This document shows, piece by piece, positions 9,414 to 42,675 of a stretch of DNA of 44,314 bases (the stretch's first letter is position 1; every line of letters starts with the position of its first letter). The stretch is taken from the IMG/VR virus record IMGVR_UViG_2579778807_000004; one strand, written 5' to 3'. The notes under the pieces were generated by a model. That model worked only from the letters and a program-made list of their open reading frames with translations, searched no databases and was not told the DNA's origin. The position numbers and the translations under genes are program-made. The DNA comes from a virus. Lineage: Duplodnaviria > Heunggongvirae > Uroviricota > Caudoviricetes.

Positions 9414-10061
9414 TCAGCGACCAATCACCACAACCTGACCACCGTCCCCTTCGTCTGCCGTGCTGATCTCCTGAGAAACCACGCGTGACCCCACGCGCAT
9501 TTCCCCGTACAGAACAGGCAGAACATTGCCCTGGGCAACCATGTTATCCAGTGAGGAGAAATAGGTGTTCTGTTTGCCGTTATCTGTACTTGCTGCCGTG
9601 GGCGTCCTGGCTTTCGGTGCCAGCATCTGCGCCACTCCGCCCAGGATCATACTGGCCCCTGCCGCATACATGCCCGATACAGCCGCGGCACCCAGCCAGC
9701 CCACAGGGTTCCACCATGCCACCGCAATCAGCGCCGCCCCCAGCACCACCTGAAACACACCGCCACTTTTAGCTCCCGCCAGACGCGGCACGATGTGGAT
9801 CACGGCACCATTTTCCAGCGGCTCATTCAGACGGGCTGATAATTCGTTTTCACCTGTATCACGCCCGGCAATCCGTATCTGATACCAGCCCTCATTCAGT
9901 TTCTGACGAAACGCCGGGAGCTGTGTGACCAGTGCCCGGATGGCTTCAGCCCCCGTTTTCACACGAAGGTCGATACGGCGACCAAATCGTTGCAAATCCC
10001 CGTAAAGGCAGATGCGTGCCATGCCCGGTGACGCCAGAGGGAGTGTGTGCGTCGCTGCCAT
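9414..10061 (-). CDS. I: Tail tip assembly protein I
   Basis: MAATHTLPLASPGMARICLYGDLQRFGRRIDLRVKTGAEAIRAL... matches lambda I; position between K and J. Confidence 0.9.
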   Translation of the reverse strand: MAATHTLPLASPGMARICLYGDLQRFGRRIDLRVKTGAEAIRALVTQLPAFRQKLNEGWYQIRIAGRDTGENELSARLNEPLENGAVIHIVPRLAGAKSGGVFQVVLGAALIAVAWWNPVGWLGAAAVSGMYAAGASMILGGVAQMLAPKARTPTAASTDNGKQNTYFSSLDNMVAQGNVLPVLYGEMRVGSRVVSQEISTADEGDGGQVVVIGR

Positions 10062-11415: not shown

Positions 11416-11745
11416 CTATGCCACGACCTGTTCAAAATCTGCCGTTATGGTTACCCACAACGCCCCCACGCTTGCCGACCATTTACGACAAACCACCCTG
11501 ATCGGCTTCCAGTCATAAGGTGGCGTCCACTGAAATGCGCGGACGCCACCGTGCCGTTCCAGAAAGGCTTTTAAAGATGGGTGTTCACATTTACGAACAC
11601 GTATCGTCACGCTGTAAGTCGACAACTGGTTATTCAGTCCCGCCGCACGACGCTGTTCATAGCCATCGCCCAGCTTCACTGTCACCACTTTCGGCTCTGA
11701 TACCACATTCATATCCGGGCGCACTTTCCAGTGAAACGTCTCCAT
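11416..11745 (-). CDS. M: Minor tail protein M
   Basis: 109 aa, position between H and L, lambda M-like. Confidence 0.85.
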   Translation of the reverse strand: METFHWKVRPDMNVVSEPKVVTVKLGDGYEQRRAAGLNNQLSTYSVTIRVRKCEHPSLKAFLERHGGVRAFQWTPPYDWKPIRVVCRKWSASVGALWVTITADFEQVVA

Positions 11746-14700
11746 TACCGATATGCTCCACTTAACCGACCACCATCACGGGCCTGCTGTTGCATAAAGT
11801 CCGCTGCCGCTTTTTTCCCAAGGTCATAAACCACCTTCAGGGCAGCCGGACCTATCTGCCCGTTCGTGCCATCGTTATTGATCTCGATGTTGTACTGCGG
11901 GGCAAACATCGCCATACCTGAACCACCAATATCCGCCACAACCCCCAGCTTACCGTCAGCACCACGACGCAGTGGCAGAATGGCTTCAGGTCCAGCTTCC
12001 CCCATCACACCCGCGCCTTTTGCAAAAGCAAAAAACGTCGGACGGTTAACCACCGTGCCACTGTAACGACTCAAATCAGCAGACTGATAAATCCCCCCAT
12101 TGGCATTCAGGGAAAGGCTGCTGAGATCAAATCCCAGTACACTGCCAATCCCTTTTATCGATTTCATCATGGTTGCCTGCGCCAGGATTTTCGCCATATC
12201 TGACAGCACAGAAGAGGTGAAGGATTTGAAATTGAGTTTGCCGGTAGTGACAAAAGTTGCCAGGCCATTTCCCATGTTGCTGAAGGCTGACGAGAACACC
12301 TGTTCTGCTGTTTCTGCCGTATTATCTGCATCCACGGTAAAATCCTGAAATGCACGCAGGACTCCGTTTTTCCAGTTACCCTGCACAACTTCAAGCTGTT
12401 GCCAGTAACGGCGATTCTCATTCAGTTGTCGGTTCAGGCTCTCCGTCAGCGCCTGCTCGGCCTTTCTGTAGTCATCCGTGTTATATGTCCCTTTCTGCTC
12501 ACTATCCCGCCTCAACTGCTCCAGCTGTTGCTGGTATTTCTGGCGAAGACTCAGTTGTACCTGATATCGCTGTCGCTGCTGATCACCCATACCCACCGTG
12601 GCGATATCCAGGTCATGTTGCTGACGCTGAGCGCGCTCTTCTTCAGCCAGTTGACTGGTCAGCTGAATTGTTTTTTTCTTCAGCTCGTTGAGTGCCGTCT
12701 GTTTCTGAAGCTCCTGCTGTTTTACATCCAGCAGCGTCAGTGCCTGAATCAGTTCATCTTTACGGGCCAGCACACTCTTTTCATCTGCCGTCAGTTTTTT
12801 CCCGTCCAGGTCGCTGATGCGCTGCTGCAGAGCCAGAAGCTGTTTATGCGCTTCTGTCATCCTTTCCGTGGCAATGCCTGCTGACTGTCTGGCAGCAGCA
12901 ATCTGTCCTTCCACCTGTGCCTGTTGCTGACTGTACTGCAGCAATAACCGGGTGGCCTCATCATTACGGGTTTCGCGTGTTTTTTTCTTACCGGATGCCA
13001 CGGCTTTCTCGTAACGTTCATTTTCACGTTGTATCGCCGCATCCCTGACAGCCTGATCGGCGTACTGCATGGCATTAATACGCGCAATTTCACGCTGATG
13101 TCGTGCTGCTTCCGTTTCATTCATCCGGTTCAGTGCAGCATTTTCAGCATTACGGCGTTTCTGTTGCTCCTGATAATTCCGCTCTGCCTGCTCTTTTGCA
13201 TCCTGCAAATCCTTCTGGCGTTTTTTCTCCTGAAGATCGTTAAGACGCTGCTGATCGTATTCAACCTGAGAAGATGATGCCGTCCAGGGGAGTCTTTTCG
13301 CCCGCGACACTTTCTCCTGTAAAGCGGCAATCTGTTCATCCAGCGAGTCTTCACGACCAATATTCATGGCCGCATCCCAGAAACGACTCCACAAATCAGA
13401 CAGATACTTCAGCGTACTGCCAAGCGCATTGAGGTTATTATCAATATCCGCAGTACGCCGACCGGTTTCCTCTGCCAGTGCAGACATGGCTATCCGTGCA
13501 GCATCACTGGACCGCCCCTGCTCCCCAAGGACGCGTATCTGCTCAAGCTGAGTGGCAGTAAGAAAATGCAGCTCATTGTCCAGAGCCTTCGCGGCATTTA
13601 CAGGATCATCCTTCAGCCGCTTAAACTGATTTATGGTATCGCTGACCGACTGGCCAACCGATCGCTCCATCTGTGCGGCAGCTCTCGCCACCATACCGAT
13701 ATCGTTTCCACGAAATGCACCACTCCCCACCACCTGAGCCAGCGCACCGGCTGCAGCATGTTGCGTGATACCATTCCCGGAAATAGCACGACTGAGCGTC
13801 CACAGCTGCCCGGCAGTGACTCCGGCATAATGCCCCGTCAGCGACAACTGGCGGTTAAATTCTTCCCCCTCCTTCTGACCGTCATACCAGGCTTTACCCA
13901 GACCATAGACGGCCGCGGCAATACCGCCAATAACCCCGCCAAGCATCATGCCTTTCGGTGACATCAGTGTGTCTATCCATCCGGCACGGTTAGCCAGCGT
14001 TATCCCGGATCCCCTCAGCGCCCCTAAATTGCCGCGGGCCAGTTCACCTATCAGAACGCCTATCTCCTGGCGGGCTGCTGCACTTTTCAGACCCAGCGAA
14101 TGCGTGGCTTTTCCTGCCTGCTCCATTTTGCGGATATACACTTCTGCAGCACTGCTTACCCCCAGCTGGGCTGCCTTAGCACGAAGCAACTCAGAAGATG
14201 AAAGATTCAGGCGGGTTGCCTGCTCTTTAAGCTGACGGATAAACGCCACTTTCTGTCGGGTAGCCTCTTCCTCAGCCTGTGTAAGAACACGGGTTTTCGC
14301 AGTAACCTCAGAAATCAGCGCCAGATAATCCTGCTGACCAATCCCGCCACTGTTTCTGGCCTGTCGGATCTGCTGCTGAATACGCTGTAATTCCTGCAGC
14401 CCCGCACTGGCCTGTTTCACACTGTCAATCTGACGATAAAACGCAGCAGCCGCTTTATCCTGAGCCTCCGCCAGAGCCATGGCCTGCGCCTGTTCCTCGC
14501 GCATTTTCTGGCTCAGTGCCTCCATGCGCTGGCGGGTTTTCTCCACCTCGCGGGCCATGCGTTCATGAGCCTGTGCGTTCTTCTCCACCGTCTGCGCATG
14601 GACGGATGCGGCTGTTGCAGCCGAAGAAGCCGCCTGCGTTGTCTGCCGGGCGGCCTGAGTCTGACGCTCCATAAAACGCTGCATACGGGCAGAAGACCGT

Positions 14701-14810
14701 TCTGCATCGCTGGCTGCACCATTCAGAAGGTTTTTGATACGGGGAATTTCATTTTTAAACTCTGCCGCATCAATCCCCAAATCAATGACCAGGTTGGCTA
14801 TCTGGTCCAT
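11745..14810 (-). CDS. H: Tail tape measure protein (H-like, ~1020 aa, longer than the remembered 853-aa lambda H)
   Basis: Coiled-coil-rich; C-terminus NDGTNGQIGPAALKVVYD...RDGG matches lambda H C-terminus; start set at internal ATG (MDQIANLVIDLGID, cf. lambda MAEPVGDLVVDLSLD); ORF track extends to 14840. Confidence 0.88.
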   Translation of the reverse strand: MDQIANLVIDLGIDAAEFKNEIPRIKNLLNGAASDAERSSARMQRFMERQTQAARQTTQAASSAATAASVHAQTVEKNAQAHERMAREVEKTRQRMEALSQKMREEQAQAMALAEAQDKAAAAFYRQIDSVKQASAGLQELQRIQQQIRQARNSGGIGQQDYLALISEVTAKTRVLTQAEEEATRQKVAFIRQLKEQATRLNLSSSELLRAKAAQLGVSSAAEVYIRKMEQAGKATHSLGLKSAAARQEIGVLIGELARGNLGALRGSGITLANRAGWIDTLMSPKGMMLGGVIGGIAAAVYGLGKAWYDGQKEGEEFNRQLSLTGHYAGVTAGQLWTLSRAISGNGITQHAAAGALAQVVGSGAFRGNDIGMVARAAAQMERSVGQSVSDTINQFKRLKDDPVNAAKALDNELHFLTATQLEQIRVLGEQGRSSDAARIAMSALAEETGRRTADIDNNLNALGSTLKYLSDLWSRFWDAAMNIGREDSLDEQIAALQEKVSRAKRLPWTASSSQVEYDQQRLNDLQEKKRQKDLQDAKEQAERNYQEQQKRRNAENAALNRMNETEAARHQREIARINAMQYADQAVRDAAIQRENERYEKAVASGKKKTRETRNDEATRLLLQYSQQQAQVEGQIAAARQSAGIATERMTEAHKQLLALQQRISDLDGKKLTADEKSVLARKDELIQALTLLDVKQQELQKQTALNELKKKTIQLTSQLAEEERAQRQQHDLDIATVGMGDQQRQRYQVQLSLRQKYQQQLEQLRRDSEQKGTYNTDDYRKAEQALTESLNRQLNENRRYWQQLEVVQGNWKNGVLRAFQDFTVDADNTAETAEQVFSSAFSNMGNGLATFVTTGKLNFKSFTSSVLSDMAKILAQATMMKSIKGIGSVLGFDLSSLSLNANGGIYQSADLSRYSGTVVNRPTFFAFAKGAGVMGEAGPEAILPLRRGADGKLGVVADIGGSGMAMFAPQYNIEINNDGTNGQIGPAALKVVYDLGKKAAADFMQQQARDGGRLSGAYR

Positions 14811-15509
14811 AACGCACACCTCCGGAAATACCTTCCCCAAGATGCATCAGTTCTTCGTCCGTTCGCTCCGGTATCCCGTTCTCTTCCGGTAAAAGGCTGA
14901 AATCAGCCACCGCAGCATCACTGCTGCCGGACACCATTCTCACGATCAATGCCTTCAGCGAGGCAAACTGCGCATCCATCCACACATCACTGAAGCTCTG
15001 CATCCGGAAATAATCGCCCCACTCACCAAGCTCAGTGGCCGACATTTCCGACAGCATCCGCCGCCAGTCTGCCCGCCGGAACTCCCGGGCAAGCCGCATG
15101 ACAAACTGCATTTCCCGCGTCAGGACTTTTCCGGCGTCAGCACCTCATGCTCCAAATCCCCGGCATTCTCAATGGCCCCCATACCGCTCAGCGACAGAAC
15201 CATCTCCGCCCCCGCACCCAGGGCATCATACGACCATGTTGTAATAACGGATGCGCAAAGCGTCTCTACATCCTTAGACTGATCCGCATTCCACAGTGAG
15301 CGGGAAACCAGCCAGGCATTGATATCCATCCCCATCCGCAGAAAAGCAATCTGTCGTTCAGCCTCCGGCAGTTCTCCCTCTTCGGCATCAAACTTTGCCG
15401 TTCGCTGCTGAACAAACGCCAGATATTCAATTCTCTGCAGCCCGGACAGCTCACTGAGCACCACGGACTGCTTTTCATAATTAAACGAGCCCTGTTTCAG
15501 AAACATCAT
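14782..15509 (-). CDS. Tail assembly chaperone G-T fusion made by programmed -1 ribosomal frameshift near the 3' end of G
   Basis: T-frame ORF 14782-15111 overlaps the end of G in the -1 frame; the only window between the upstream -1-frame stop and the G stop contains GGAAAAG, a near-match to lambda's GGGAAAG slippery site. Confidence 0.6.
15120..15509 (-). CDS. G: Tail assembly chaperone G
   Basis: Position between V and H; MFLK...LSELS.LQRIE.LA resembles lambda G; start at ATGATG preceded by GGTGGAG; ORF-track start at 15548 is a TTG. Confidence 0.8.
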   Translation of the reverse strand: MMFLKQGSFNYEKQSVVLSELSGLQRIEYLAFVQQRTAKFDAEEGELPEAERQIAFLRMGMDINAWLVSRSLWNADQSKDVETLCASVITTWSYDALGAGAEMVLSLSGMGAIENAGDLEHEVLTPEKS

Positions 15510-15520
15510 GTTCTCCACCT

Positions 15521-15546
15521 GCAAAAAAGCCCCGGATAACCGGGGC
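15521..15546 (-). terminator. Intrinsic terminator/attenuator between major tail gene V and G
   Basis: Minus-strand hairpin GCCCCGG-TTAT-CCGGGGC followed by TTTTTTGC, just upstream of the G ribosome-binding site. Confidence 0.5.
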
Positions 15547-15566: not shown

Positions 15567-16310
15567 TTAACCTGCGGCGCTGACAGCCACCGCAGCCACG
15601 GCCACAAAATCGCCGTCAGAAGTCATGCCCACAATGCTGACACTGCCCTGCTTCACGCCTTTCACCGTGGCCACAAGCCCGTTCAGGGTCACCGTGGCAG
15701 TCTGTGGATCTGTCGAATGCACACTGATCGCTTTGTCACTGGCTCCGTCAGGTTTTACTGTAAAGGTCAGCGTGGTGGTTGCTCCCACTTTTACACTGGC
15801 AGATGCCGGTGCCACCGTCAGCCCGGTAACGCTCACTGTTTCAGTGCCTTCCTCTGCCAGATACGGACGCCCCACACCGCTGATTTTCACTGTGCGGGTC
15901 ATCACGTCTTTTGAGGCAATGGTTTTACCCAGTGAGCTCAGCCAGCCACGGAAAACATCAACAGTGCCGTTGGGATATTTGATACGAAACGCGCAGACTT
16001 CACCGGAGTCGAACAACTGAACCAGTTTTTTCTGCCCGCTGTCACCCGGACGCCAGGCCAGCGTCGCCGAAGTATCACCGACGGATTTCTGCCCCTGGGT
16101 TGTCGTTTTCCAGTCTGCATCTTCATCATCGAGATAAGTGTCATCTTCTGCATCAGCGGTCATTTCGCCAGGTTGCAGATCCTTCACCATCGCAAGACGC
16201 AGCCAGTCAGTGTCCGATAAAGGGTTCGCAAACGCATCGCCCTTGCCGGTGTACATCCAGAACGTCGTTCCCGCACCTTTCGTTTTTGCCAGTGGATTTG
16301 GTGTGGTCAT
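15567..16310 (-). CDS. V: Major tail protein V with C-terminal Ig-like domain
   Basis: P.NP..K.KGAGTT.W.Y.G.GD..ANPLSD.DW.RLA.VKDL.PGE.TA...DD.YLDDEDADW matches lambda V; start at ATG with AAGGAGGT ribosome-binding site (track start 16316 is GTG). Confidence 0.92.
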   Translation of the reverse strand: MTTPNPLAKTKGAGTTFWMYTGKGDAFANPLSDTDWLRLAMVKDLQPGEMTADAEDDTYLDDEDADWKTTTQGQKSVGDTSATLAWRPGDSGQKKLVQLFDSGEVCAFRIKYPNGTVDVFRGWLSSLGKTIASKDVMTRTVKISGVGRPYLAEEGTETVSVTGLTVAPASASVKVGATTTLTFTVKPDGASDKAISVHSTDPQTATVTLNGLVATVKGVKQGSVSIVGMTSDGDFVAVAAVAVSAAG

Positions 16311-17987: not shown

Positions 17988-19946
17988 TTACGCCGTACAT
18001 TTCACCAGACCGCGGTGATCAACTGGCGCGACACCGGCGTCAATACGCACTTTCGTTGTCACGCCATCCACACTGAAGCCCTCCATCTGATCAATATATG
18101 GCGTATCCACACCGTTGAGATAAGCCACTTCAATCGTATCGGAGCCTTTTGACGCAGCCAGGTAGAAGGTGGTCTGGCTGTTATCATCAAGACGAGGCTC
18201 TGCAATAACGGTCGCAAAATCTTTCACCGGGTTAATAATACCGGCGTTAATGTCAGCCCCCTTGACACTTGAGGAGCGAATGACCTGGTTAGCAACAGAC
18301 TCCATCGCCGTCGGTACCAGTACGAACGCAGGACGAATATTCAGATGACGCTCCCCCTCTTTCTGAACGCGCATCAACTGGCGGGCTTTATCCAGCGATG
18401 CCACGTCCATTGCAGCGCTCTCCAGTACGTTTGCATGTTTCGCTTTATCGAACAGACTTACATTATCTGTGGAGATTTTCGGGTTAGACGTCAGAATGGC
18501 ATAAACCAGATCGGCAATAGTGGATTTCGCCGCACGGCCCAGCTTCATCGGGACATCGGTCAGCATATTCAGATCATCATTGATAATGGCCTGACGGGTG
18601 ATACTGAACAGCTCGCCATAGGTCGCCAGTGCAATAGTGGCCTGTTTATCTCCGGTGGTGACGTATTTATATTCCGCCCCTTCACGCACCTGACGCAGAG
18701 CACTGAAGCCCCCCATACCCACACGATGGGCAATTTTAAAATCAGACAACTGACCTTTCCGCGTCCACTGTTCATAGGTTTCAGGGGCATCTTCCCAGCC
18801 CTGCAGAATGGCTTTGTTCGCAACATCCAGCAGAATATTACCGAAGTCAGACGTACTGTGTGTGAACGCCGCACCGACCATCTGCATCGGGTTATAACCG
18901 GAAACCCCAATACCCCGTTCAGTCAGTGACATACGGGCATATTCACGCAGGGTCATCCCGTTGTAGACATTATCACGTTCGGTTTTTTCAAATCCGGCAC
19001 GCGCCATCAGCGCCTGGCGGATCCCGTCCCCCACAAAATTACCGTTACCGGCATAAATATGAGCCGGGGTATTTTTATTGGATGGCGTGGACTCGCGCCC
19101 CATCTCGTTCAACAACTTTTCGCGGGCCTGCTCCAGCGAACATTCAGGATCGGCAAGACACTGGGCCTGCAGCGTCTGATAACGCCCGCCAAACATGGCA
19201 AACAGATCATTAATACCGTTTACACGCGCTTTTTGCTCTGCCAGTACCTGCGCACGGATACTGTTTTCATCCACCACGGGTGCTGCTGCCTGCACTGGCG
19301 TCCGGGAGGCTGCAGGTTCATCATCCTGTACGCGTGGAGCACTGTTGCGTGGCGGAGTAATCATGTTTCGAATGGATTCCGGCATCTTTTTAAATTCCTC
19401 TGTACGTTTTGACTGAATACATGCCATTGCCTTAACGGCTGGCGTTACCTGATCAGCAAATCCATGTGCCAGACATTCGGCACCGGACATCCAGGTCTCA
19501 TCCGCCAGCATGGCAGCAATTTCATCGGTGGTTTTCCCGGTTTTCTGTGCATAAGCGGGTAACAGAACCGCCTCAACTTTATCGAGCAGGTCGGCATAGG
19601 TGCGCATGTCCTCCGCATCACCGCCCGTAAAGCCAAATGGTTTATGAATCATCATGAAGGTGTTTTCCGGCATAATGACCGGGGTTCCCACCATCGCAAT
19701 GACCGACGCCATTGACGCCGCCACACCGTCGACATAAACGGTAATGGACGCACCATGTGTTTTCAGCGCATTAAAAATGGCGATGCCTTCAAAGACATCG
19801 CCACCCGGTGAATTAATATGGAGATTAATGTGGGTGATATCGCCCAGTGCATTCAGATCACTGATAAACTGCTTCGCTGTAACACCCCAGAAACCAATCT
19901 CGTCATAAATATAAATATCCGCGTCACTCTGGTGACCAGCCTGCAT
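17988..19946 (-). CDS. Prohead protease (ClpP-like) / scaffold / major capsid protein fusion
   Basis: N-terminal ClpP-like motifs (IYIYDEIGFWG...HINSPGGDVFEG...SMASVI) then Pro/Ala-rich linker, then ~330 aa capsid-like C-terminal region; no separate capsid gene in the head module; start set at Met88 of track ORF because upstream codons overlap the portal gene. Confidence 0.75.
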   Translation of the reverse strand: MQAGHQSDADIYIYDEIGFWGVTAKQFISDLNALGDITHINLHINSPGGDVFEGIAIFNALKTHGASITVYVDGVAASMASVIAMVGTPVIMPENTFMMIHKPFGFTGGDAEDMRTYADLLDKVEAVLLPAYAQKTGKTTDEIAAMLADETWMSGAECLAHGFADQVTPAVKAMACIQSKRTEEFKKMPESIRNMITPPRNSAPRVQDDEPAASRTPVQAAAPVVDENSIRAQVLAEQKARVNGINDLFAMFGGRYQTLQAQCLADPECSLEQAREKLLNEMGRESTPSNKNTPAHIYAGNGNFVGDGIRQALMARAGFEKTERDNVYNGMTLREYARMSLTERGIGVSGYNPMQMVGAAFTHSTSDFGNILLDVANKAILQGWEDAPETYEQWTRKGQLSDFKIAHRVGMGGFSALRQVREGAEYKYVTTGDKQATIALATYGELFSITRQAIINDDLNMLTDVPMKLGRAAKSTIADLVYAILTSNPKISTDNVSLFDKAKHANVLESAAMDVASLDKARQLMRVQKEGERHLNIRPAFVLVPTAMESVANQVIRSSSVKGADINAGIINPVKDFATVIAEPRLDDNSQTTFYLAASKGSDTIEVAYLNGVDTPYIDQMEGFSVDGVTTKVRIDAGVAPVDHRGLVKCTA

Positions 19947-19998
19947 CCTGAACCAGGAATTATTCTTCGGACTGGTCGTCGGTGTGCTGCGGCTCCTG

Positions 19999-21468
19999 TC
20001 ATTTCGTTGCGGCACTGCTGCCTCCTTTATCACTGGCCGGATCGGTATCAAATACCAGATCCAGATTGCGGTTTTCATCAATTTCGGCCTTGCGCCGACG
20101 TTTGACATCATCCGGATTACGACCACCAGCACGTACCCAGTCTGATTCTGTCGCCGCTCCACCACGAATCTGGATTTTCCAGGCCTCAGCCTCCTTAACA
20201 GGGTCAATCCACGGCATCACTGGTCCGGAATACACCGCGGTATACAGTGAAGAACGGTCAAGATCGCGGGGTAGCCTGATAACACCGGATGCCACAGCCT
20301 GTTTCAGCCATGCACGATACATCGGGCGGGTGACGGCACCAATAAACCAGTCCTGCAGGATCAGGTAGCCATCAGTGGATTCAACCAGCTCCTGACGCTG
20401 GGCGCTGTAAGTGCCGTTATAGTTGCGCGCTGTACTGGAAAAACTCAGACGACTGCCCGCCGCCACGGCACGCAACTGACCATTACGAAAAGTTTCAAGG
20501 TTAGGATTGGGGCGATCCGACTTCACCATTCCGATTTCTTCGCCGGGTTTCAGATCGTCGTAAATAATGCCCGGCTGAATGGTAAGCTCACGTTCATTCT
20601 CCTTTCTGCCATTACCATCCGGTTCATAGCTCTGCCCGTCGCCTTTCCGGATGTACATCCCCAGAGCAGCGGCGATCCTTGCTGCAGTCAGCTCAGAATC
20701 TTCATATTCTTTCAGGGCACTGAGGCGGATCAGCACACCGGACAACAAAGACGTCCCGCGCATCTGGTGCAGACGGCGAACAAATTTAAGATGCAGCATT
20801 CGCTCTGCATCCACTTCTTTGGTTTCCATCTGCCGTCCGGATACGGGACGGCTTTTATACACCAGATATTTTTCGGGACGCCCCCAGTCATCAACAAACA
20901 CGCCCTGATTCAGCCTGTTGCTCTCATCACTGGTCATGGGAATAAAGTCCGGCTCGAGCGCCTCCAGCCAGAAATGAACACCGGCAGAAGGCGCCAGGCT
21001 GTTTATGCGCCCGGAAACCATCTGGGCAAACACCTCACCATCGCGCAGCCAGGTACGAAGCATCAGACGTTCCAGCATCGGACGGGTAAACTGCCCGGTG
21101 ACTTCCGGGCTGACAGACCATTCACTCCATCGGGTGCGAATCTCCGCAGCCAGGTCACGGGCAATGGCCCCATTGCGTAATACCGGATGTGGCTCGACAA
21201 TAATCCCGTTTTTCCCCACCACCCGTTCTTCCAGCTTGTCAAATACACCAATAACCAGATCGTGGTTGTTATCAAGGTAACGGGCCTGCTCACGTAACGA
21301 CACGGCCCCGTACTGGCTTAACTGGTCGGCAGTTCGGTTCTCCCGTCGGGCTTTGTGTGTCCGCGTCGTTTTTACGGCCTCATAAGCCTGGATCACCGCA
21401 CGGGAACGCAGCCTTGCCGCTTTCCATCCTGGTGAAAAAACGCCAATCACATCATCAAGAATTGCCAT
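19999..21468 (-). CDS. Portal protein
   Basis: ~490 aa between gpW-like gene and protease/capsid gene; start ATG overlaps gpW-like stop (TGATG). Confidence 0.8.
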   Translation of the reverse strand: MAILDDVIGVFSPGWKAARLRSRAVIQAYEAVKTTRTHKARRENRTADQLSQYGAVSLREQARYLDNNHDLVIGVFDKLEERVVGKNGIIVEPHPVLRNGAIARDLAAEIRTRWSEWSVSPEVTGQFTRPMLERLMLRTWLRDGEVFAQMVSGRINSLAPSAGVHFWLEALEPDFIPMTSDESNRLNQGVFVDDWGRPEKYLVYKSRPVSGRQMETKEVDAERMLHLKFVRRLHQMRGTSLLSGVLIRLSALKEYEDSELTAARIAAALGMYIRKGDGQSYEPDGNGRKENERELTIQPGIIYDDLKPGEEIGMVKSDRPNPNLETFRNGQLRAVAAGSRLSFSSTARNYNGTYSAQRQELVESTDGYLILQDWFIGAVTRPMYRAWLKQAVASGVIRLPRDLDRSSLYTAVYSGPVMPWIDPVKEAEAWKIQIRGGAATESDWVRAGGRNPDDVKRRRKAEIDENRNLDLVFDTDPASDKGGSSAATK

Positions 21469-29666: not shown

Positions 29667-30626
29667 TTAATTCACCATCAGTCTTAGAGCCAGTTCTTCC
29701 GGATAGGGATCGAAGTAATTCTGTGTAAGCAAGTAATCATTAGGATACTCACCCAGATAATGCTTCAGCAGAGTCAACGGCGCAAGAAGAGGCAATGTGC
29801 CAAAGCGATAGTTAAGTATAACCTCGCTCAACTCTTTACGCTGGCGTGTACTTAAGTAATTACTAAAATACCCCTGTATATGCATCAGCACATTCGTGTG
29901 ATTTTTACGTGATGCTGGTTTTCTGAGAATCGCCATCAGATTATCACGATACACCTCAAAGTATGATTCAAGGTCCGCCCACTCGTGTATTGCAGCCACA
30001 AATGGTCCCATATCTTTATAGCCTGCCTGGCTATGCGCCAACAACTGAAGCTTATAACGACTATGAAAAGCTAATAACTCTCTTCTTGATAATTTCTCCT
30101 TGTAAAGATGATTGAGCTCATGCAAAGCAAAAACTCTTTCAATAAAATTCTCACGAAGCACTGGATCATGTAATCGCCCATCCTCTTCAACCGGTAGCCA
30201 GGAAAACTTTTCCATCAAAGTGCTCGTAAATAGTCCCACTCCATCTTTACGACCTCGATTACCATTTTCATCATAGACACGCACGCGCTCCATGCCACAG
30301 CTGGGAGATTTAGCACAAACCACAAACCCCGATACATCCTTTAATTTGTCCATATAAGAACGACTAAACTCTGTCATTCTCTCTGTCACATCCTCATTCT
30401 GGTCGTGGCTGAAACACATCCGTATATTTCCTTGCTTCGAGCGCACAAGTCGTAGAGCAGGACGCGGAACTGGCAGCCCTATAGCCATTTCCGGACATAC
30501 TGGTCTGAATGTTACCCATTCCACTAATTTGTCCATTAAAAAGTCATCTCTTTTGTGACCACCATCAAAACGAACAGCAGAACCGCCCAAACAACCGCTG
30601 ATCCCAATCACAGGTTTTTTTATCAT
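29667..30626 (-). CDS. DUF523/DUF1722 two-domain protein (YbgA-like; N-terminal domain resembles TudS-type Fe-S proteins)
   Basis: 319 aa; N-terminal Cys-containing motifs (ISGCLGG, CPE, CAKSPSCGME) then YbgA-like C-terminal domain; recalled from memory. Confidence 0.55.
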   Translation of the reverse strand: MIKKPVIGISGCLGGSAVRFDGGHKRDDFLMDKLVEWVTFRPVCPEMAIGLPVPRPALRLVRSKQGNIRMCFSHDQNEDVTERMTEFSRSYMDKLKDVSGFVVCAKSPSCGMERVRVYDENGNRGRKDGVGLFTSTLMEKFSWLPVEEDGRLHDPVLRENFIERVFALHELNHLYKEKLSRRELLAFHSRYKLQLLAHSQAGYKDMGPFVAAIHEWADLESYFEVYRDNLMAILRKPASRKNHTNVLMHIQGYFSNYLSTRQRKELSEVILNYRFGTLPLLAPLTLLKHYLGEYPNDYLLTQNYFDPYPEELALRLMVN

Positions 30627-30818: not shown

Positions 30819-31343
30819 ATGAAGTTATGGCCTGTGTTGACTGGCATTGCACTCTCTTTCACTCTTATAGCATGTAAGGCCCCGACACCACCTAAAGGTG
30901 TGCAGCCGATTACAAATTTTGACGCCAACCGCTACCTCGGAAAATGGTATGAAATAGCTCGCCTCGAGAACTGGTTCGAACGTGGTCTGGAACAAGTCAG
31001 CGCTACTTATGAAAAACGGAACGACGGAGGGATTCGCGTACTTAACCGTGGATACGATCCAACGAAAAACAAATGGAGCGAGAGCGAAGGTAAAGCATAC
31101 TTTACTGGAGATACTAAAACTGCAGCGTTGAAAGTTTCGTTTTTTGGCCCCTTCTATGGTGGCTATAATGTAATCAAGCTGGATGATGAGTATAAGTATG
31201 CTCTTGTCAGTGGTCCGAACAGAGAATACCTATGGATTCTGGCAAGGACCCAAACTATTCCAGATAATGTAAAAGCAGACTATGTGCGTACCGCTCAAAA
31301 GTTGGGATTCAATGTCAATGAACTATTATGGGTTAAACAATAA
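30819..31343 (+). CDS. Outer-membrane lipocalin (Blc-like)
   Basis: Lipoprotein signal (LIACKAP) and strong similarity to remembered E. coli Blc (NFDA.RYLGKWYEIAR...FERGLE...KVSFFGPFYGGYNVI.LD.EY..ALV.GP.R.YLWIL.RT). Confidence 0.88.
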   Translation: MKLWPVLTGIALSFTLIACKAPTPPKGVQPITNFDANRYLGKWYEIARLENWFERGLEQVSATYEKRNDGGIRVLNRGYDPTKNKWSESEGKAYFTGDTKTAALKVSFFGPFYGGYNVIKLDDEYKYALVSGPNREYLWILARTQTIPDNVKADYVRTAQKLGFNVNELLWVKQ

Positions 31344-34155: not shown

Positions 34156-35712
34156 TTACCTATCAAACAACGGATGTATTACAAAATCTCTCTTCATATC
34201 AGTAATATCCAAATTAGGTTTATCAAAAGATGAATATATAATTAAAGATGCTGTTTTCCTTATGCCAACCACGCCTACGACGAACCAGACTTTAAGTAAC
34301 TCCTCAAAATTCATCAATATTTTTGTATGTTGATCATCCTCTTTAACTACAGTCAATCTATCAAGTAAATGCTGCGATATATCATCTTTTACTGCTTGTC
34401 CTATGTTTGAGACTGTAAAATCAGAAAATGAAATCAAGGAAAGCACATCCAAATATTCTTCGATAAACGGATATATGCTTTTCCATTCTGTAACCAAAGC
34501 TCTCTTTCTGGACGAATAAAATTTCTCTTCGGCAATTAACACAATATTTTCATTCATGTTAACCATACCATCGCACTCAGAAAGACATATATTTACGAAA
34601 TTAATTGCATCTCTAGGCCTAAGCATTGTTCTGTCAAGGATATAATCATCTGCTCCAATACCTTCAACTGTAAAATTAAAAATATCCTTCATTAATACAG
34701 ACTTATTTGATTGATATCTATTTTTAACCAAATGGTTAATTCTAGCATCAATAATCTCTCTTATTTCCGTTTTATTCCATGATATGGAATATATTAAAGA
34801 TTGATCTTTCTCATCCTGCCTTAAACTACTTTTATAAATTCCCATTAAAATATCTGTTCTTATTGATATCAGAACCTTAACCGACTTTATATCTAATAAT
34901 TCTCGAAAGGCCTCAAGAAGAGCATTAATAAAGTCATATCTGATGGCGCTCGTGCTTAACCAAGATTTATCTAAATCATCGATACTGATTACTATTCTAA
35001 CCTGGTTTGAGTCAGCGAACTCCTCTTTAAGTATTTTAATAAGTTCTTTTTGTTTAAAAAGAAGTTCACGACTCACATAACTTGAAGTTTCTGATTGTAT
35101 TTTGGCTGTATCAGAATTAGATATTTTACCACCCACACCAACAGCGGAATTTCCGAGTTTGAATGACAAATCACTTTCAAGCTTGTTACTTATTTCAATG
35201 AGCGCTTTATCATTGAAGAAATTTTCTTTAAATTGTTCAATATAATCATTCGCAACTTCTGGTTTATACGGTTTCTTCTTACCACCAATAAGATCTTTAA
35301 TTTCCTCAAAAAAGCTTTGATAGGAAGAACGATAAACGGCTGGTATAACTTTCATAAGTAATACATGCAGCCATAACGATTTATAAAACCCACGTAAATC
35401 TATCCCTTTCGAGATCAAATCAGATATAAACACATTGTTATTAATATGTTCAAATATCGTATTTTCTGCCTCTATTGTGTCATGCAGCTTAATATTTCCT
35501 TTGTCTAATATTTTTTTAAGCAACGCAGACTTACCGCTTCCTGTTCTTCCAACAATAATTCTTCTTGTAAAATCAGGATTCTTCTCAGTAGAGTCAAAAT
35601 TCACAATACCTTTAAAAACATTGGACTCATAAAAACAAGCATCAAGATAAGAATCAGTTTCCGCCTCTAATTTTCCAATCTCATCATTATTTCTGAATTT
35701 ATAGGCATTCAT
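34156..35712 (-). CDS. P-loop NTPase of unknown family in an AT-rich island; candidate standalone anti-phage defence / abortive-infection protein
   Basis: Walker A IVGRTGSGKSALLKKI near N-terminus; Walker B-like VRIVISIDDLDKSW ~185 aa later; Arg-containing motif RTMLRPRD; strikingly AT-rich versus flanking phage genes; occupies the relBE-equivalent hotspot. Confidence 0.7.
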   Translation of the reverse strand: MNAYKFRNNDEIGKLEAETDSYLDACFYESNVFKGIVNFDSTEKNPDFTRRIIVGRTGSGKSALLKKILDKGNIKLHDTIEAENTIFEHINNNVFISDLISKGIDLRGFYKSLWLHVLLMKVIPAVYRSSYQSFFEEIKDLIGGKKKPYKPEVANDYIEQFKENFFNDKALIEISNKLESDLSFKLGNSAVGVGGKISNSDTAKIQSETSSYVSRELLFKQKELIKILKEEFADSNQVRIVISIDDLDKSWLSTSAIRYDFINALLEAFRELLDIKSVKVLISIRTDILMGIYKSSLRQDEKDQSLIYSISWNKTEIREIIDARINHLVKNRYQSNKSVLMKDIFNFTVEGIGADDYILDRTMLRPRDAINFVNICLSECDGMVNMNENIVLIAEEKFYSSRKRALVTEWKSIYPFIEEYLDVLSLISFSDFTVSNIGQAVKDDISQHLLDRLTVVKEDDQHTKILMNFEELLKVWFVVGVVGIRKTASLIIYSSFDKPNLDITDMKRDFVIHPLFDR

Positions 35713-40203: not shown

Positions 40204-42675
40204 ATGAGTAAAGTCTTTATTTGCGCCGCTATTCCTGACGAACTGGCAACAAGGGAAGAAGGCGCTGTGGCTGTAGCCACAGCCATTGAAGCTGGCGACG
40301 AACGCCGTGCTCGAGCAAAATTTCACTGGCAGTTCCTGGAACATTATACGGCTGCTCAGGACTGCGCTTATAAATTTATTGTCTGCGAGGATAAACCTGG
40401 CATACCTCGCCCTGCCCTCGATTCATGGGATGCTGAATATATGCAGGAAAACCGCTGGGATGAGGAGTCTGCTTCTTTTGTCCCGGTTGAGACTAAATCC
40501 GATCCGATGAACGTCACTTTTGACAAGCTGGCCCCTGAAGTACAGAACGCTGTCATGGTTAAGTTCGACACATGTGAAAACATCACCGTTGATATGGTTA
40601 TTAGCGCACAGGAATTGTTGCAGGAAGACATGGCAACATTCGACGGACATATCGTTGAAGCGTTGATGAAAATGCCAGAAGTTAACGCCATGTATCCGGA
40701 GCTTAAGTTGCACGCCATTGGGTGGGTTAAGCATAAATGTATTCCTGGTGCTAAATGGCCCGAAATTCAGGCAGAGATGCGCATCTGGAAAAAACGTCGC
40801 GAAGGTGAACGCAAGGAAACCGGAAAATACACGTCTGTTGTTGATCTCGCCCGCACCAGAGCCAATCAACAGTACACTGAAAATTCAACAGGAAAAATCA
40901 GCCCGGTCATTGCTGCCATTCATCGCGAATACAAGCAGACATGGAAAACACTGGATGACGAACTGGCCTACGCTCTCTGGCCTGGTGATGTGGATGCCGG
41001 AAACATTGACGGCAGCATCCATCGCTGGGCAAAAAAAGAAGTTATCGACAACGACCGCGAAGACTGGAAGCGTATCTCGGCATCAATGCGCAAACAGCCT
41101 GATGCCCTTCGCTACGACCGCCAAACTATTTTTGGCCTTGTCCGTGAGCGTCCGATCGACATTCACAAAGAACCCGTAGCACTGAACAAATATATCTGCG
41201 AATACCTGACGACAAAGGGCGTGTTTGAGAATGAAGAAACAGACCTGGGCACTGTTGATGTTCTCCAGTCATCAGAAACACAAACTGATGCAGTGGAAAC
41301 TGAGGTATCTGATATCCCAAAAAATGAAACCGCGCCGGAAGCTGAACCATCTGTAGAGCGTGAGGGGCCGTTCTATTTCCTCTTCGCAGATAAGGACGGA
41401 GAAAAATACGGTCGCGCAAACAAACTTTCTGGTCTGGATAAGGCACTGGCTGCTGGCGCCACTGAAATCACTAAAGAAGAATATTTTGCCCGAAAAAATG
41501 GCACATACACGGGCTTACCGCAAAATGTAGATACCGCTGAAGATTCAGAACAACCAGAACCGATAAAAGTTACCGCTGACGAAGTAAACAAAATTATGCA
41601 GGCAGCCAATATCAGCCAGCCTGACGCCGATAAGTTGCTTGCTGCATCACGTGGTGAATTTGTTGAAGGGATTAGTGACCCGAATGATCCGAAATGGGTT
41701 AAGGGGATCCAGACCCGCGATTCTGTGAACCAGAACCAGCATGAATCGGAACGGAACTACCAAAAAGCGGAACAAAACAGCCCAAATGCGTTACAAAACG
41801 AGCCAGAAACGAAACAGCCTGAACCAGTGGCGCAACAGGAAGTGGAAAAAGTCTGCACCGCCTGCGGTCAGACCGGCGGCGGCAACTGCCCTGATTGTGG
41901 CGCGGTGATGGGCGACGCAACATACCAGGAAACATTCGATGAAGAGTATCAGGTTGAAGTTCAGGAAGATGATCCGAAGGAAATGGAAGGCGCTGAACAT
42001 CCACACAAGGGGAACACTGGCGGCAATCAGCATCACGATAGCGATAATGAAACTGGCGAGACGGCAGATCACTCAATTAAGGTGAACGGTCATCACGAAA
42101 TCACATCCACCAGCAGGACGTGTGACCATCTAATGATCGACCTTGAAACCATGGGAAAAAATCCTGATGCCCCGATCATCTCAATAGGTGCAATATTTTT
42201 CGATCCGCAAACCGGAGATATGGGACCGGAATTTAGTAAGACTATCGATCTGGAAACTGCTGGCGGAGTCATTGATCGGGACACCATTAAATGGTGGCTT
42301 AAGCAATCACGCGAAGCGCAATCTGCCATTATGACCGATGAAATCCCGTTAGATGATGCACTGTTACAATTGCGGGAATTTATCGACGAAAACTCCGGTG
42401 AATTTTTTGTTCAGGTCTGGGGAAATGGAGCCAACTTCGACAACACGATTTTGCGCCGTTCATACGAACGGCAGGGGATCCCCTGCCCGTGGCGTTACTA
42501 CAACGATCGCGATGTACGCACAATCGTTGAGCTGGGGAAAGCCATAGACTTCGATGCCAGAACGGCTATTCCATTCGAAGGTGAGCGCCATAATGCACTT
42601 GATGACGCCCGTTACCAGGCAAAATACGTTTCAGTTATCTGGCAAAAACTGATCCCGAGTCAGGCTGATTCTTAA
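40204..42675 (+). CDS. Large early-region protein with C-terminal DEDDh (DnaQ-like) 3'-5' exonuclease domain and a Cys4 zinc ribbon; intact YdfE-like
   Basis: C-terminal motifs MIDLETMG, WGNGANFD and HNALDDARY; zinc ribbon CTACGQTGGGNCPDCG; N-terminus resembles remembered K-12 YdfE. Confidence 0.7.
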   Translation: MSKVFICAAIPDELATREEGAVAVATAIEAGDERRARAKFHWQFLEHYTAAQDCAYKFIVCEDKPGIPRPALDSWDAEYMQENRWDEESASFVPVETKSDPMNVTFDKLAPEVQNAVMVKFDTCENITVDMVISAQELLQEDMATFDGHIVEALMKMPEVNAMYPELKLHAIGWVKHKCIPGAKWPEIQAEMRIWKKRREGERKETGKYTSVVDLARTRANQQYTENSTGKISPVIAAIHREYKQTWKTLDDELAYALWPGDVDAGNIDGSIHRWAKKEVIDNDREDWKRISASMRKQPDALRYDRQTIFGLVRERPIDIHKEPVALNKYICEYLTTKGVFENEETDLGTVDVLQSSETQTDAVETEVSDIPKNETAPEAEPSVEREGPFYFLFADKDGEKYGRANKLSGLDKALAAGATEITKEEYFARKNGTYTGLPQNVDTAEDSEQPEPIKVTADEVNKIMQAANISQPDADKLLAASRGEFVEGISDPNDPKWVKGIQTRDSVNQNQHESERNYQKAEQNSPNALQNEPETKQPEPVAQQEVEKVCTACGQTGGGNCPDCGAVMGDATYQETFDEEYQVEVQEDDPKEMEGAEHPHKGNTGGNQHHDSDNETGETADHSIKVNGHHEITSTSRTCDHLMIDLETMGKNPDAPIISIGAIFFDPQTGDMGPEFSKTIDLETAGGVIDRDTIKWWLKQSREAQSAIMTDEIPLDDALLQLREFIDENSGEFFVQVWGNGANFDNTILRRSYERQGIPCPWRYYNDRDVRTIVELGKAIDFDARTAIPFEGERHNALDDARYQAKYVSVIWQKLIPSQADS

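What the first reader, a model, noticed from the sequence alone, without database searches (positions are those of the whole stretch)
15100..15140. G-T programmed -1 frameshift with a non-canonical slippery sequence
The T ORF overlaps the 3' end of G in the -1 frame, as in lambda, but the only available window between the upstream -1-frame stop and the G stop contains CCGGAAAAGTCC, i.e. GGAAAAG rather than lambda's GGGAAAG. A tail assembly chaperone frameshift on a near-canonical heptamer is worth confirming.
Basis: partly seen in the sequence, partly recalled or inferred. Interest (0 to 1): 0.45.

Follow-up and report, generated by a model that had tools for sequence, protein, structure and literature searches.

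The report
Lambda-type G-T tail chaperone frameshift site
This is the usual programmed -1 ribosomal frameshift that makes the G-T tail assembly chaperone of a lambda-like E. coli prophage; its heptamer GGAAAAG differs by one base from lambda's, is already marked as the slip site in phage N15, and is the commonest version in this gene family.

Summary
It lies on the minus strand. Gene G (lambda tail assembly chaperone family) ends at 15120. The T reading frame is the -1 frame and is open only from 15144. The 25-nt overlap holds one shift-prone heptamer, G_GAA_AAG, at 15132-15126.

An alignment with lambda gpGT puts this heptamer at exactly the position of lambda's G_GGA_AAG.

I grouped related loci from Enterobacterales prophages and phages into 29 sequence clusters. 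GGAAAAG sits at this position in 24, GGGAAAG in 4 and AAAAAAG in 1. The flanks diverge freely. The third base of the variable preceding codon always matches the heptamer's first base.

Conservation of the T-frame protein starts right at the junction. The ATG at 15111 is not conserved and has no recognisable ribosome binding site.

I found no conserved stimulatory hairpin or Shine-Dalgarno-like element.

The RefSeq record of phage N15 already labels its GGAAAAG as the "slippery sequence for -1 translational frameshift". Gifsy-2, which carries the same heptamer, is annotated as a frameshift hybrid.

It is simply not annotated in this phage lineage (cdtI/mEp460/Ayreon type). Interest is low.

The parts
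15120..15506 (-). Gene G, tail assembly chaperone (128 aa from ATG 15506; an in-frame ATG also lies at 15509). The stop TGA is at 15122-15120.
   Evidence: Pfam PF06894 Phage_TAC_2, E=3.9e-39. PGAP places gpG at the equivalent coordinates in E. coli ECCHD184. It has a Shine-Dalgarno-like GGAG upstream, -6.4 kcal/mol.
15126..15132 (-). Shift heptamer G_GAA_AAG. Zero-frame codons are GAA (Glu) and AAG (Lys); -1-frame codons are GGA and AAA.
   Evidence: Sequence. Positional homologue of lambda G_GGA_AAG. Conserved in 24 of 29 lineages. The same heptamer is annotated as the slippery sequence in N15.
15145..15147 (-). Last stop codon (TGA) in the -1 (T) frame upstream of the shift site. It sets the 5' limit of the region where a shift can occur.
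   Evidence: Six-frame translation and overlap analysis.
14782..15126 (-). T segment, read in the -1 frame from GTC at 15126-15124 to the TGA at 14784-14782 (114 aa). Joined to G residues 1-127, it gives a predicted 241-aa gpGT.
   Evidence: Pfam PF06223 Phage_tail_T, E=1.9e-14, on the fusion. Alignment to lambda gpGT. T-frame conservation begins at the junction.
15109..15111 (-). ATG used by public annotations as the start of an independent T gene. It is probably not a genuine start.
   Evidence: Annotated as the T start by PGAP and RefSeq mEp460, while Ayreon uses a different start. The Met is not conserved. Anti-SD pairing is -4.3 kcal/mol against a background mean of -4.06.
11745..14810 (-). 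Tape measure gene H, the partner to which G and GT bind. Its start overlaps the end of T by 29 nt.
   Evidence: Pfam TMP_2, Tape_meas_lam_C and TMP_4. PGAP coordinates. Strong SD, -10.8 kcal/mol.
15567..16310 (-). Major tail protein gene V, immediately upstream of G.
   Evidence: Pfam Phage_TTP_12, E=6.4e-67, plus Big_2. PGAP coordinates.
15529..15546 (-). Intrinsic terminator hairpin GCCCCGG-TTAT-CCGGGGC followed by TTTTTT, between V and G.
   Evidence: Terminator scan. Annotated as a terminator at the same place in mEp460, Ayreon and N15.

Best explanation
The window carries the tail gene module of a lambda-like E. coli prophage of the cdtI/mEp460/Ayreon type.

Most ribosomes translating G stop at the TGA at 15122-15120 and make the 128-aa chaperone gpG. 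A small fraction slip back one nucleotide on G_GAA_AAG (15132-15126), when tRNA-Glu occupies the P site on GAA and tRNA-Lys occupies the A site on AAG. tRNA-Lys re-pairs perfectly with AAA. tRNA-Glu re-pairs with GGA through G:C, a central G.U and A:U. Translation then continues in the -1 frame (GTC CTG ACG ...), giving a 241-aa gpGT fusion with the junction ...LTPEK|VLTREMQF....

By analogy with lambda, the G part binds the tape measure protein H. The T part recruits the major tail protein V. The fixed low GT:G ratio set by the slip frequency is needed for tail assembly.

Shown here: the gene geometry, the homology, the positional identity with lambda's site, and nucleotide-level conservation of the heptamer. 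Inferred: that slippage happens, its tandem two-tRNA nature, its efficiency, and the roles of the proteins.
For: 1. G and T match the lambda G and T Pfam families and sit between V and H.
2. In the alignment with lambda gpGT, the K|V junction is the exact counterpart of lambda's junction, 16 residues before the LAREF/M motif.
3. Of 29 clusters of related loci, with GT protein identity down to about 36-60%, 24 have GGAAAAG, 4 GGGAAAG and 1 AAAAAAG at this position and in this phase. The upstream linker is almost unalignable.
4. The base before GAA/GGA/AAA is the third position of a variable four-fold degenerate codon (GCG, CCG, CTG, or TCA). It always equals the X needed for P-site re-pairing. 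A naive product of probabilities from local codon usage gives 10^-14.7.
5. GAA is never GAG, and AAG is never AAA.
6. No other in-frame XXXYYYZ heptamer occurs in any overlap. Across lineages the permitted region shrinks to the heptamer: the -1-frame stop lies 3 nt upstream in Edwardsiella, and the G stop lies 0 nt downstream in Proteus and Providencia.
7. T-frame amino-acid conservation begins at the junction, and the first Met is not conserved.
8. The T ATG has no SD above background.
9. The N15 RefSeq record marks GGAAAAG as the 'slippery sequence for -1 translational frameshift'. The Gifsy-2 T homologue is annotated as part of a frameshift hybrid and has the same heptamer.
10. The literature reports that A_AAG is shift-prone in E. 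coli, that G_GA-type P-site variants are known, and that G.U is among the less costly of the mismatches measured (PMC5009743; PMC6787027).
Against: There is no direct evidence of a fusion protein for this phage or, in what I could read, for any GGAAAAG phage.

In a reconstituted E. coli system, AUG_GAA_AAG gave mainly zero-frame product. The authors called it unfavourable because of the second-position mismatch (PMC6924986). The efficiency here could therefore be low.

No stimulatory structure or conserved SD-like element was found.

The G at the last heptamer position is also the first base of a conserved Val/Ala codon in the T frame, so part of the heptamer's invariance may be a protein constraint.

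The lineages are related, so the probability in item 4 is overstated.
Confidence: 0.88

Rival explanations
1. The frameshift occurs at this site, but only tRNA-Lys slips, on A_AAG. This is the hexanucleotide or tetranucleotide type seen at CGA_AAG in B. subtilis cdd and IS1222. tRNA-Glu would not genuinely re-pair with GGA.
For: [quoted passage not shown] A_AAG alone supports low-level -1 shifting in E. coli, with efficiency depending on the two bases 5' of it (PMC5009743). A low level is all that G-T needs.
Against: The base at heptamer position 0 is under no protein constraint. It is G in 28 of 28 GGA/GGG lineages and A in the single AAAAAAG lineage, across four different preceding codons. 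This is expected only if the P-site tRNA's first-position pairing in the -1 frame matters.
Confidence: 0.1
2. T is made on its own from ATG 15111, as public annotations imply. This might happen by termination-reinitiation, since the G stop lies 8 nt upstream. No fusion would be needed.
For: PGAP and RefSeq mEp460 annotate T as a separate CDS from this ATG. The ATG lies 8 nt after the G stop, which could allow coupling.
Against: Anti-SD pairing is -4.3 kcal/mol, at the background level (-4.06), against -12.9 for V, -10.8 for H and -6.4 for G. The Met is not conserved: 12 of 29 lineages have no Met before residue +23, which is beyond the conserved LAREF..DWR block. T-frame conservation starts at the heptamer, upstream of this ATG. 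Annotators disagree on the start. In lambda the T domain acts only as part of gpGT (from my own knowledge of Levin et al. 1993 and Xu et al. 2013-2014, cited in PMC5009743).
Confidence: 0.04
3. The fusion arises from transcriptional slippage of RNA polymerase on the A4 run rather than from ribosomal slippage.
For: The site contains a short homopolymer, AAAA. Transcriptional slippage is a known recoding route in bacteria (PMC5009743).
Against: From my own knowledge, productive transcriptional slippage needs runs of about 7-9 or more identical bases, and four A's are far too short. It would also not explain the strict phase of the heptamer or the conserved G at position 0.
Confidence: 0.01

Closest known systems
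Phage lambda G / G-T programmed -1 frameshift (G_GGA_AAG)
   Same: Same gene order (V-G-T-H), same Pfam families and same -1 overlap. The slip site is at the exactly homologous codon pair, and the heptamer ends in A_AAG in both. Neither has an evident stimulatory structure here.
   Different: Heptamer position 3 is A instead of G. The P-site codon is therefore GAA (tRNA-Glu) rather than GGA (tRNA-Gly), and re-pairing in the -1 frame needs a central G.U pair. GT protein identity is only 38%. G has one codon after the site, against five in lambda.
Phage N15 genes 14/15, and the same arrangement in Gifsy-2, phi80 and mEp043
   Same: Identical heptamer GGAAAAG in the same phase and position. N15's record explicitly labels it as the slippery sequence for the -1 frameshift. 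Gifsy-2 annotates the T homologue as part of a frameshift hybrid. phi80 and mEp043 carry the same heptamer.
   Different: The flanking sequence and G/T protein sequences differ (T-region identity in the 50s of percent for Gifsy-2 and phi80). In this lineage (cdtI/mEp460/Ayreon and the E. coli prophages whose records I opened) no record annotates the frameshift.
Hexanucleotide NNA_AAG -1 shift sites (B. subtilis cdd A_CGA_AAG, IS1222 G_CGA_AAG)
   Same: A non-canonical P-site codon is followed by the shift-prone A_AAG read by the single tRNA-Lys (PMC5009743).
   Different: Here the P-site tRNA can still form G:C, G.U and A:U pairs in the -1 frame, and position 0 is conserved. This site is intermediate between the hexanucleotide and the canonical heptanucleotide types.
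G_GA-type shift sites of eukaryotic RNA viruses (insect-specific flaviviruses, dianthoviruses, some umbraviruses, mesoniviruses) and GGGGGAA in actinobacteriophage tail chaperone genes
   Same: [quoted passage not shown]
   Different: The hosts, ribosomes, A-site codons and stimulators differ. In GGGGGAA, tRNA-Glu is the downstream (second) of the two slipping tRNAs; here it is the upstream (first).
E. coli dnaX A_AAA_AAG
   Same: A -1 shift ending in A_AAG, read by tRNA-Lys. The window has a GAGG 10 nt upstream, the same spacing as the dnaX SD-like stimulator (the dnaX spacing is from my own knowledge).
   Different: No downstream hairpin is supported. The GAGG is not conserved beyond what codon content predicts. 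dnaX shifts at about 50-80%, whereas G-T needs only a few percent.

Membership tests
Lambda-type tail assembly chaperone G/GT frameshift pair | A G gene of the lambda TAC family lies between the major tail protein gene and the tape measure gene | tested here: met
   PF06894 E=3.9e-39; V (PF16461) upstream and H (PF06791, PF09718) downstream.
Lambda-type tail assembly chaperone G/GT frameshift pair | A downstream T-domain ORF lies in the -1 frame and overlaps the 3' end of G | tested here: met
   PF06223 E=1.9e-14 on the -1-frame continuation. The overlap is 25 nt.
Lambda-type tail assembly chaperone G/GT frameshift pair | A conserved shift-prone heptamer lies in the overlap, in the correct phase, at the position homologous to lambda's site | tested here: met
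   G_GAA_AAG at 15132-15126 aligns with lambda G_GGA_AAG. It is conserved in 24 of 29 lineages. It is annotated as the slip site in N15.
Lambda-type tail assembly chaperone G/GT frameshift pair | T has no conserved independent start, and its conservation extends up to the shift site | tested here: met
   Met positions vary or are absent, and conservation starts at K|[VA][LF]xxE. No SD above background.
Lambda-type tail assembly chaperone G/GT frameshift pair | A G-T fusion protein is made at a low fixed ratio and is required for tail assembly | not testable with these tools
   This needs protein detection or genetics. No annotated full-length fusion was found in the protein collection.
Canonical X_XXY_YYZ tandem slippery heptamer | The first three bases are identical and the next three are identical, in the zero-frame phase X_XXY_YYZ | tested here: not met
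   The heptamer is G_GAA_AAG. Its third base is A, so XXX = GGA. It works like a tandem site but is not a strict member.
Hexanucleotide/tetranucleotide A_AAG single-tRNA slippage sites | A_AAG is present in phase | tested here: met
   GAA_AAG in the G frame.
Hexanucleotide/tetranucleotide A_AAG single-tRNA slippage sites | There is no requirement for P-site tRNA re-pairing, so bases 5' of the hexamer are free to vary | tested here: not met
   Position 0 is invariant and covaries with the XX bases across four different preceding codons. This is comparative evidence only.
dnaX-type stimulated -1 frameshift | A conserved Shine-Dalgarno-like element lies 6-17 nt upstream | tested here: inconclusive
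   GAGGTG lies at 15146-15141, 10 nt from GAGG to the heptamer. GAGG occurs at that position in only 7 of 24 GGAAAAG lineages. That is about what the separate base frequencies in those columns predict.
dnaX-type stimulated -1 frameshift | A stable hairpin or pseudoknot lies a few nt downstream | tested here: not met
   Fold z-scores are 0.02, 0.32 and -0.95 against shuffles.

The most novel reading that the evidence does not exclude
In the sample collected here, GGAAAAG is the predominant and probably ancestral slip site of lambda-type tail chaperone genes, rather than the textbook GGGAAAG. It is present in both deep branches of a rough tree, with lambda's form nested within them. Yet biochemists have used the same heptamer as an 'unfavourable' control. 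If so, these phages would have selected a P-site tRNA-Glu re-pairing through a central G.U pair to set a particular, perhaps lower, GT:G ratio. In some lineages, including this one, a GAGG 10 nt upstream might compensate.
Probability: 0.3. Interest if true: 0.35.

Novelty: already known. Interest (0 to 1): 0.2.

Why it matters
The main consequence is for annotation. In every record of this lineage that I opened, T is annotated as a separate gene starting at an ATG that is probably not used, and gpGT is missing. This prophage tail module matched 1,848 of 5,426 complete E. coli genomes.

There is also a small mechanistic point. A heptamer regarded in vitro as poorly slippery is the form kept by most members of this family in my sample. 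That makes it a natural test case for how much P-site mispairing a low-efficiency programmed frameshift tolerates.

It does not open a new question.

Tried and rejected
- **Downstream stimulatory structure.** Three folds around and after the site scored no better than shuffles.
- **Upstream SD-like stimulator.** GAGG lies 10 nt upstream in the window and in 6 other GGAAAAG lineages. This is not more than expected from a conserved Glu codon followed by a G-starting codon.
- **GGGAAAT just after the G stop (15116-15110).** It looks canonical but lies beyond the G stop and is out of phase for the T frame (CGG GAA ATG), so it cannot serve.
- **Another heptamer in the overlap.** None exists in any lineage.
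- **Literature on GGAAAAG as a phage slip site.** Full-text searches found only the in-vitro study by Peng et al..
- **Primary papers.** Xu et al. 2004 (Mol Cell) is not held, as I tried it. I did not look up Ravin et al. 2000 (N15). I therefore could not check whether the N15 shift was shown experimentally.
- **Annotated full-length fusions.** A search of the protein collection found none. It found only four singleton proteins in which a deletion fuses G to T in frame.
- **Polymorphism within the cdtI-type lineage.** The heptamer is unchanged in all 20 distinct haplotypes. There is too little variation for this to mean much on its own.

Full report
**What is at the coordinates**

The genes here run on the minus strand. 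Read in that direction, an ORF starts at ATG 15509/15506 and ends with ...CTG ACG CCG GAA AAG TCC TGA, with the stop at 15122-15120. The frame one base 5' of it (the -1 frame) has a TGA at 15147-15145. It is then open from 15144 through GGT GCT GAC GCC GGA AAA GTC CTG ACG CGG GAA ATG ... to a stop at 14784-14782.

The overlap in which a ribosome could pass from one frame to the other is 25 nt. The heptamer G_GAA_AAG is at 15132-15126.

**What the genes are**

- The upstream ORF matches Pfam Phage_TAC_2, 'lambda tail assembly chaperone G' (E=3.9e-39).
- The -1-frame continuation matches Phage_tail_T (E=1.9e-14).
- The gene before them is a lambda-type tail tube protein with an Ig-like domain.
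- The gene after them is a lambda-type tape measure protein.

The whole late region of the window is 96-97% identical to phages cdtI, mEp460 and Ayreon. The G-T segment matched 1,848 of 5,426 complete E. coli genomes. The rest of the window has lambda-type terminase and portal genes, a ClpP-capsid fusion, J and side tail fibre genes and an integrase. It is a complete lambdoid prophage.

In the records I opened, T is annotated as a separate gene. PGAP and RefSeq mEp460 start it at the ATG equivalent to 15111. Ayreon starts it further downstream. None joins it to G.

**Is the heptamer the homologue of lambda's site?**

I built the predicted fusion (G through Lys-AAG, then the -1 frame from GTC) and aligned it with lambda gpGT, built the same way on G_GGA_AAG. 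The two junctions coincide without gaps: lambda ...SAGK|VFDGELSFALKLAREM and the window ...TPEK|VLTREMQFVMRLAREF. The site is the same codon pair as in lambda, with one G-to-A difference at heptamer position 3.

**Comparative evidence**

I collected 80 viral-contig loci and 69 loci from one genome per species. To these I added annotated phages: Gifsy-2, phi80, mEp043, VT1-Sakai, Providencia PSTCR8lys, an Stx2a phage and N15. For each locus I defined the T frame by tblastn and extracted the G/T overlap.

Anchoring on the heptamer gave 70 distinct 160-nt sequences in 29 clusters at 85% identity. GGAAAAG is present in 24 clusters, GGGAAAG in 4 and AAAAAAG in 1.

- The GGAAAAG clusters come from prophages of Escherichia, Salmonella, Kosakonia, Xenorhabdus, Proteus, Providencia, Kluyvera, Erwinia, Serratia, Enterobacter, Citrobacter and others.
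- The GGGAAAG clusters are lambda, an E. albertii/Stx2a-phage group, a Symbiopectobacterium/Serratia group and Edwardsiella.
- The AAAAAAG cluster is VT1-Sakai.

The 30 nt upstream are very variable, whereas the heptamer columns are nearly invariant. Four points make this more than protein conservation.

1. The first heptamer base is the third position of a variable four-fold degenerate codon: GCG in 16 clusters, CCG in 8, CTG in 4 and TCA in 1. It always equals the base needed for the P-site tRNA to keep its first-position pair after the slip. That base is G for GGA and GGG, and A for the one AAA lineage. From local four-fold codon usage, the naive product of probabilities is 10^-14.7. This is overstated because the lineages are related, but the codon changed identity several times while keeping that base.
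2. Glu is always GAA and Lys is always AAG.
3. No other in-frame XXXYYYZ exists in any overlap. The permitted region shrinks across lineages to the heptamer itself: the -1-frame stop is 3 nt upstream in Edwardsiella, and the G stop directly follows the heptamer in Proteus and Providencia.
4. The T-frame protein is conserved from the first residue after the junction ([VA][LF]xxE[LR]xF[VA][LM][KR]LAREF). The first Met in that frame is not conserved: 12 of 29 lineages have none before residue +23.

A rough neighbour-joining tree of the fusion proteins places GGAAAAG in both deep branches, with the lambda GGGAAAG group nested inside. In this sample, lambda's canonical heptamer is the minority form and probably the derived one.

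**Is it already known?**

Yes. The RefSeq record of phage N15 carries a misc_feature 'slippery sequence for -1 translational frameshift' at 10027-10033 for gene 15, and those bases read GGAAAAG. The Gifsy-2 record calls its T homologue 'part of G+G' frameshift hybrid protein', and its overlap has the same heptamer.

General reviews describe several relevant facts (PMC5009743):
- the conserved tail chaperone frameshift;
- A_AAG as a shift-prone tetramer in E. coli;
- hexanucleotide sites such as CGA_AAG;
- 'G_GA' variants of the X_XX part of the heptamer.

The PRFect paper lists a two-plus-four slippery motif among annotated frameshifts. It also notes G.U re-pairing of tRNA-Glu on GGA in the actinobacteriophage motif GGGGGAA (PMC10885494).

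I found no open-access paper that discusses GGAAAAG in lambdoid phages. I tried to open Xu et al. 2004 but it is not held, and I did not look up the N15 genome paper. I therefore do not know whether the N15 shift was demonstrated or only inferred.

**Mechanism**

The most likely mechanism is tandem -1 slippage with tRNA-Glu on GAA in the P site and tRNA-Lys on AAG in the A site.

After the slip, tRNA-Lys faces AAA. In E. coli this is a better partner for its modified wobble base than AAG (PMC6787027). tRNA-Glu faces GGA, keeping G:C and A:U pairs and forming a central G.U. In the dnaX system, the A.U-to-G.U change was less penalised than the changes to pyrimidine-pyrimidine pairs.

Peng et al. 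used AUG_GAA_AAG as their 'less slippery' control. They saw mainly zero-frame product with wild-type EF-G, and more shifting when translocation was slowed (PMC6924986). That fits a low-efficiency site, which is what G-T requires: lambda's G:GT ratio is about 30:1 (PMC5009743).

I found no stimulators. Folds downstream of the site are no more stable than shuffles. A GAGG lies 10 nt upstream (15146-15143), the spacing of the dnaX element. It occurs at that position in only 7 of 24 GGAAAAG lineages, which is what a conserved Glu codon followed by a G-starting codon would give by itself.

**Rivals**

- **tRNA-Lys-only slippage on A_AAG.** This is possible, but it does not explain the conserved, covarying position 0.
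- **Independent translation of T from ATG 15111.** The case is weak. Pairing to the anti-SD sequence is -4.3 kcal/mol, against a background mean of -4.06, and against -12.9, -10.8 and -6.4 for V, H and G. The ATG is not conserved, and the conserved part of T starts upstream of it. Reinitiation after the G stop 8 nt upstream cannot be excluded for this lineage, but it would be a lineage-specific extra.
- **Transcriptional slippage on four A's.** This is implausible.

**Verdict**

It is the ordinary lambda-type G-T frameshift, using the heptamer variant already annotated in N15. In this sample that variant is the commonest in the family. Its practical value is to correct the annotation of T in this very common E. 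coli prophage module. The mechanistic curiosity is modest.

Noticed in passing
window 15529-15546 (minus strand): A strong intrinsic terminator (GCCCCGG-TTAT-CCGGGGC followed by TTTTTT) lies between the major tail gene V and G, directly before G's ribosome binding site. The same feature is annotated in mEp460, Ayreon and N15. It may lower transcription of G, T and H relative to V.
   Followed up: partly
window 15141-15146 (minus strand): A Shine-Dalgarno-like GAGGTG has its GAGG core 10 nt upstream of the heptamer, the spacing used by the dnaX stimulator. It overlaps the -1-frame stop. GAGG is at the same position in 6 other GGAAAAG lineages, including Gifsy-2, but this is not above expectation.
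   Followed up: partly
window 15110-15116 (minus strand): A canonical-looking heptamer GGGAAAT lies just after the G stop. It is beyond the G stop and out of phase for the T frame, so it is not a usable shift site.
   Followed up: yes
proteins P0001, P0002, P0003 (E. coli-type) and P0020 (Salmonella): Four singleton database proteins of 212-233 aa carry both the G and the T domain in one frame, because of deletions across the junction. P0001 reads DAGK, the -1-frame translation upstream of the heptamer. They are probably defective prophages or assembly errors that would make only GT and no G.
   Followed up: partly
window 29667-30626 (minus strand), with a neighbouring ORF at 30819-31343 (plus strand): This cargo gene has a 2-thiouracil desulfurase domain plus DUF1722. 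It also occurs, at 91-97% DNA identity, in some other lambdoid phage records. In those records the matched stretch also carries a gene annotated as lipocalin Blc, but I did not establish that this corresponds to the ORF at 30819-31343. The two tRNAs that slip at G_GAA_AAG both carry a 2-thiouridine at the wobble position. Any link is pure speculation and was not examined.
   Followed up: no
window 34156-35712 (minus strand): A 518-aa ORF in the early region of the prophage has weak KAP-family P-loop and STAND NTPase matches. It may be a defence or exclusion gene.
   Followed up: no
window 17988-20207 (minus strand): A single long ORF combines a ClpP-type protease domain and a capsid protein domain, giving a protease-major capsid fusion. 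The listed TTG start is probably too far upstream.
   Followed up: no
window 40204-42675 (plus strand): An 823-aa early-region protein has an Rv2179c-like 3'-5' exoribonuclease domain as its only Pfam match, at the C-terminus. The first 640 residues have no match.
   Followed up: no
window about 14891-14908 (minus strand): The mEp460 record annotates a rho-independent terminator inside T (GGCTGA-TT-TCAGCC followed by TTTT). The terminator scan here did not report it, so it may be a chance hairpin.
   Followed up: partly
loci L126-L136 and L144-L146: Exact lambda G-T sequence turns up in assemblies labelled Neobacillus, Oceanobacillus, Kitasatospora, Shewanella, Pseudomonas, Leeuwenhoekiella and others, mostly on short low-coverage contigs. 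This looks like lambda DNA contamination of those assemblies.
   Followed up: no
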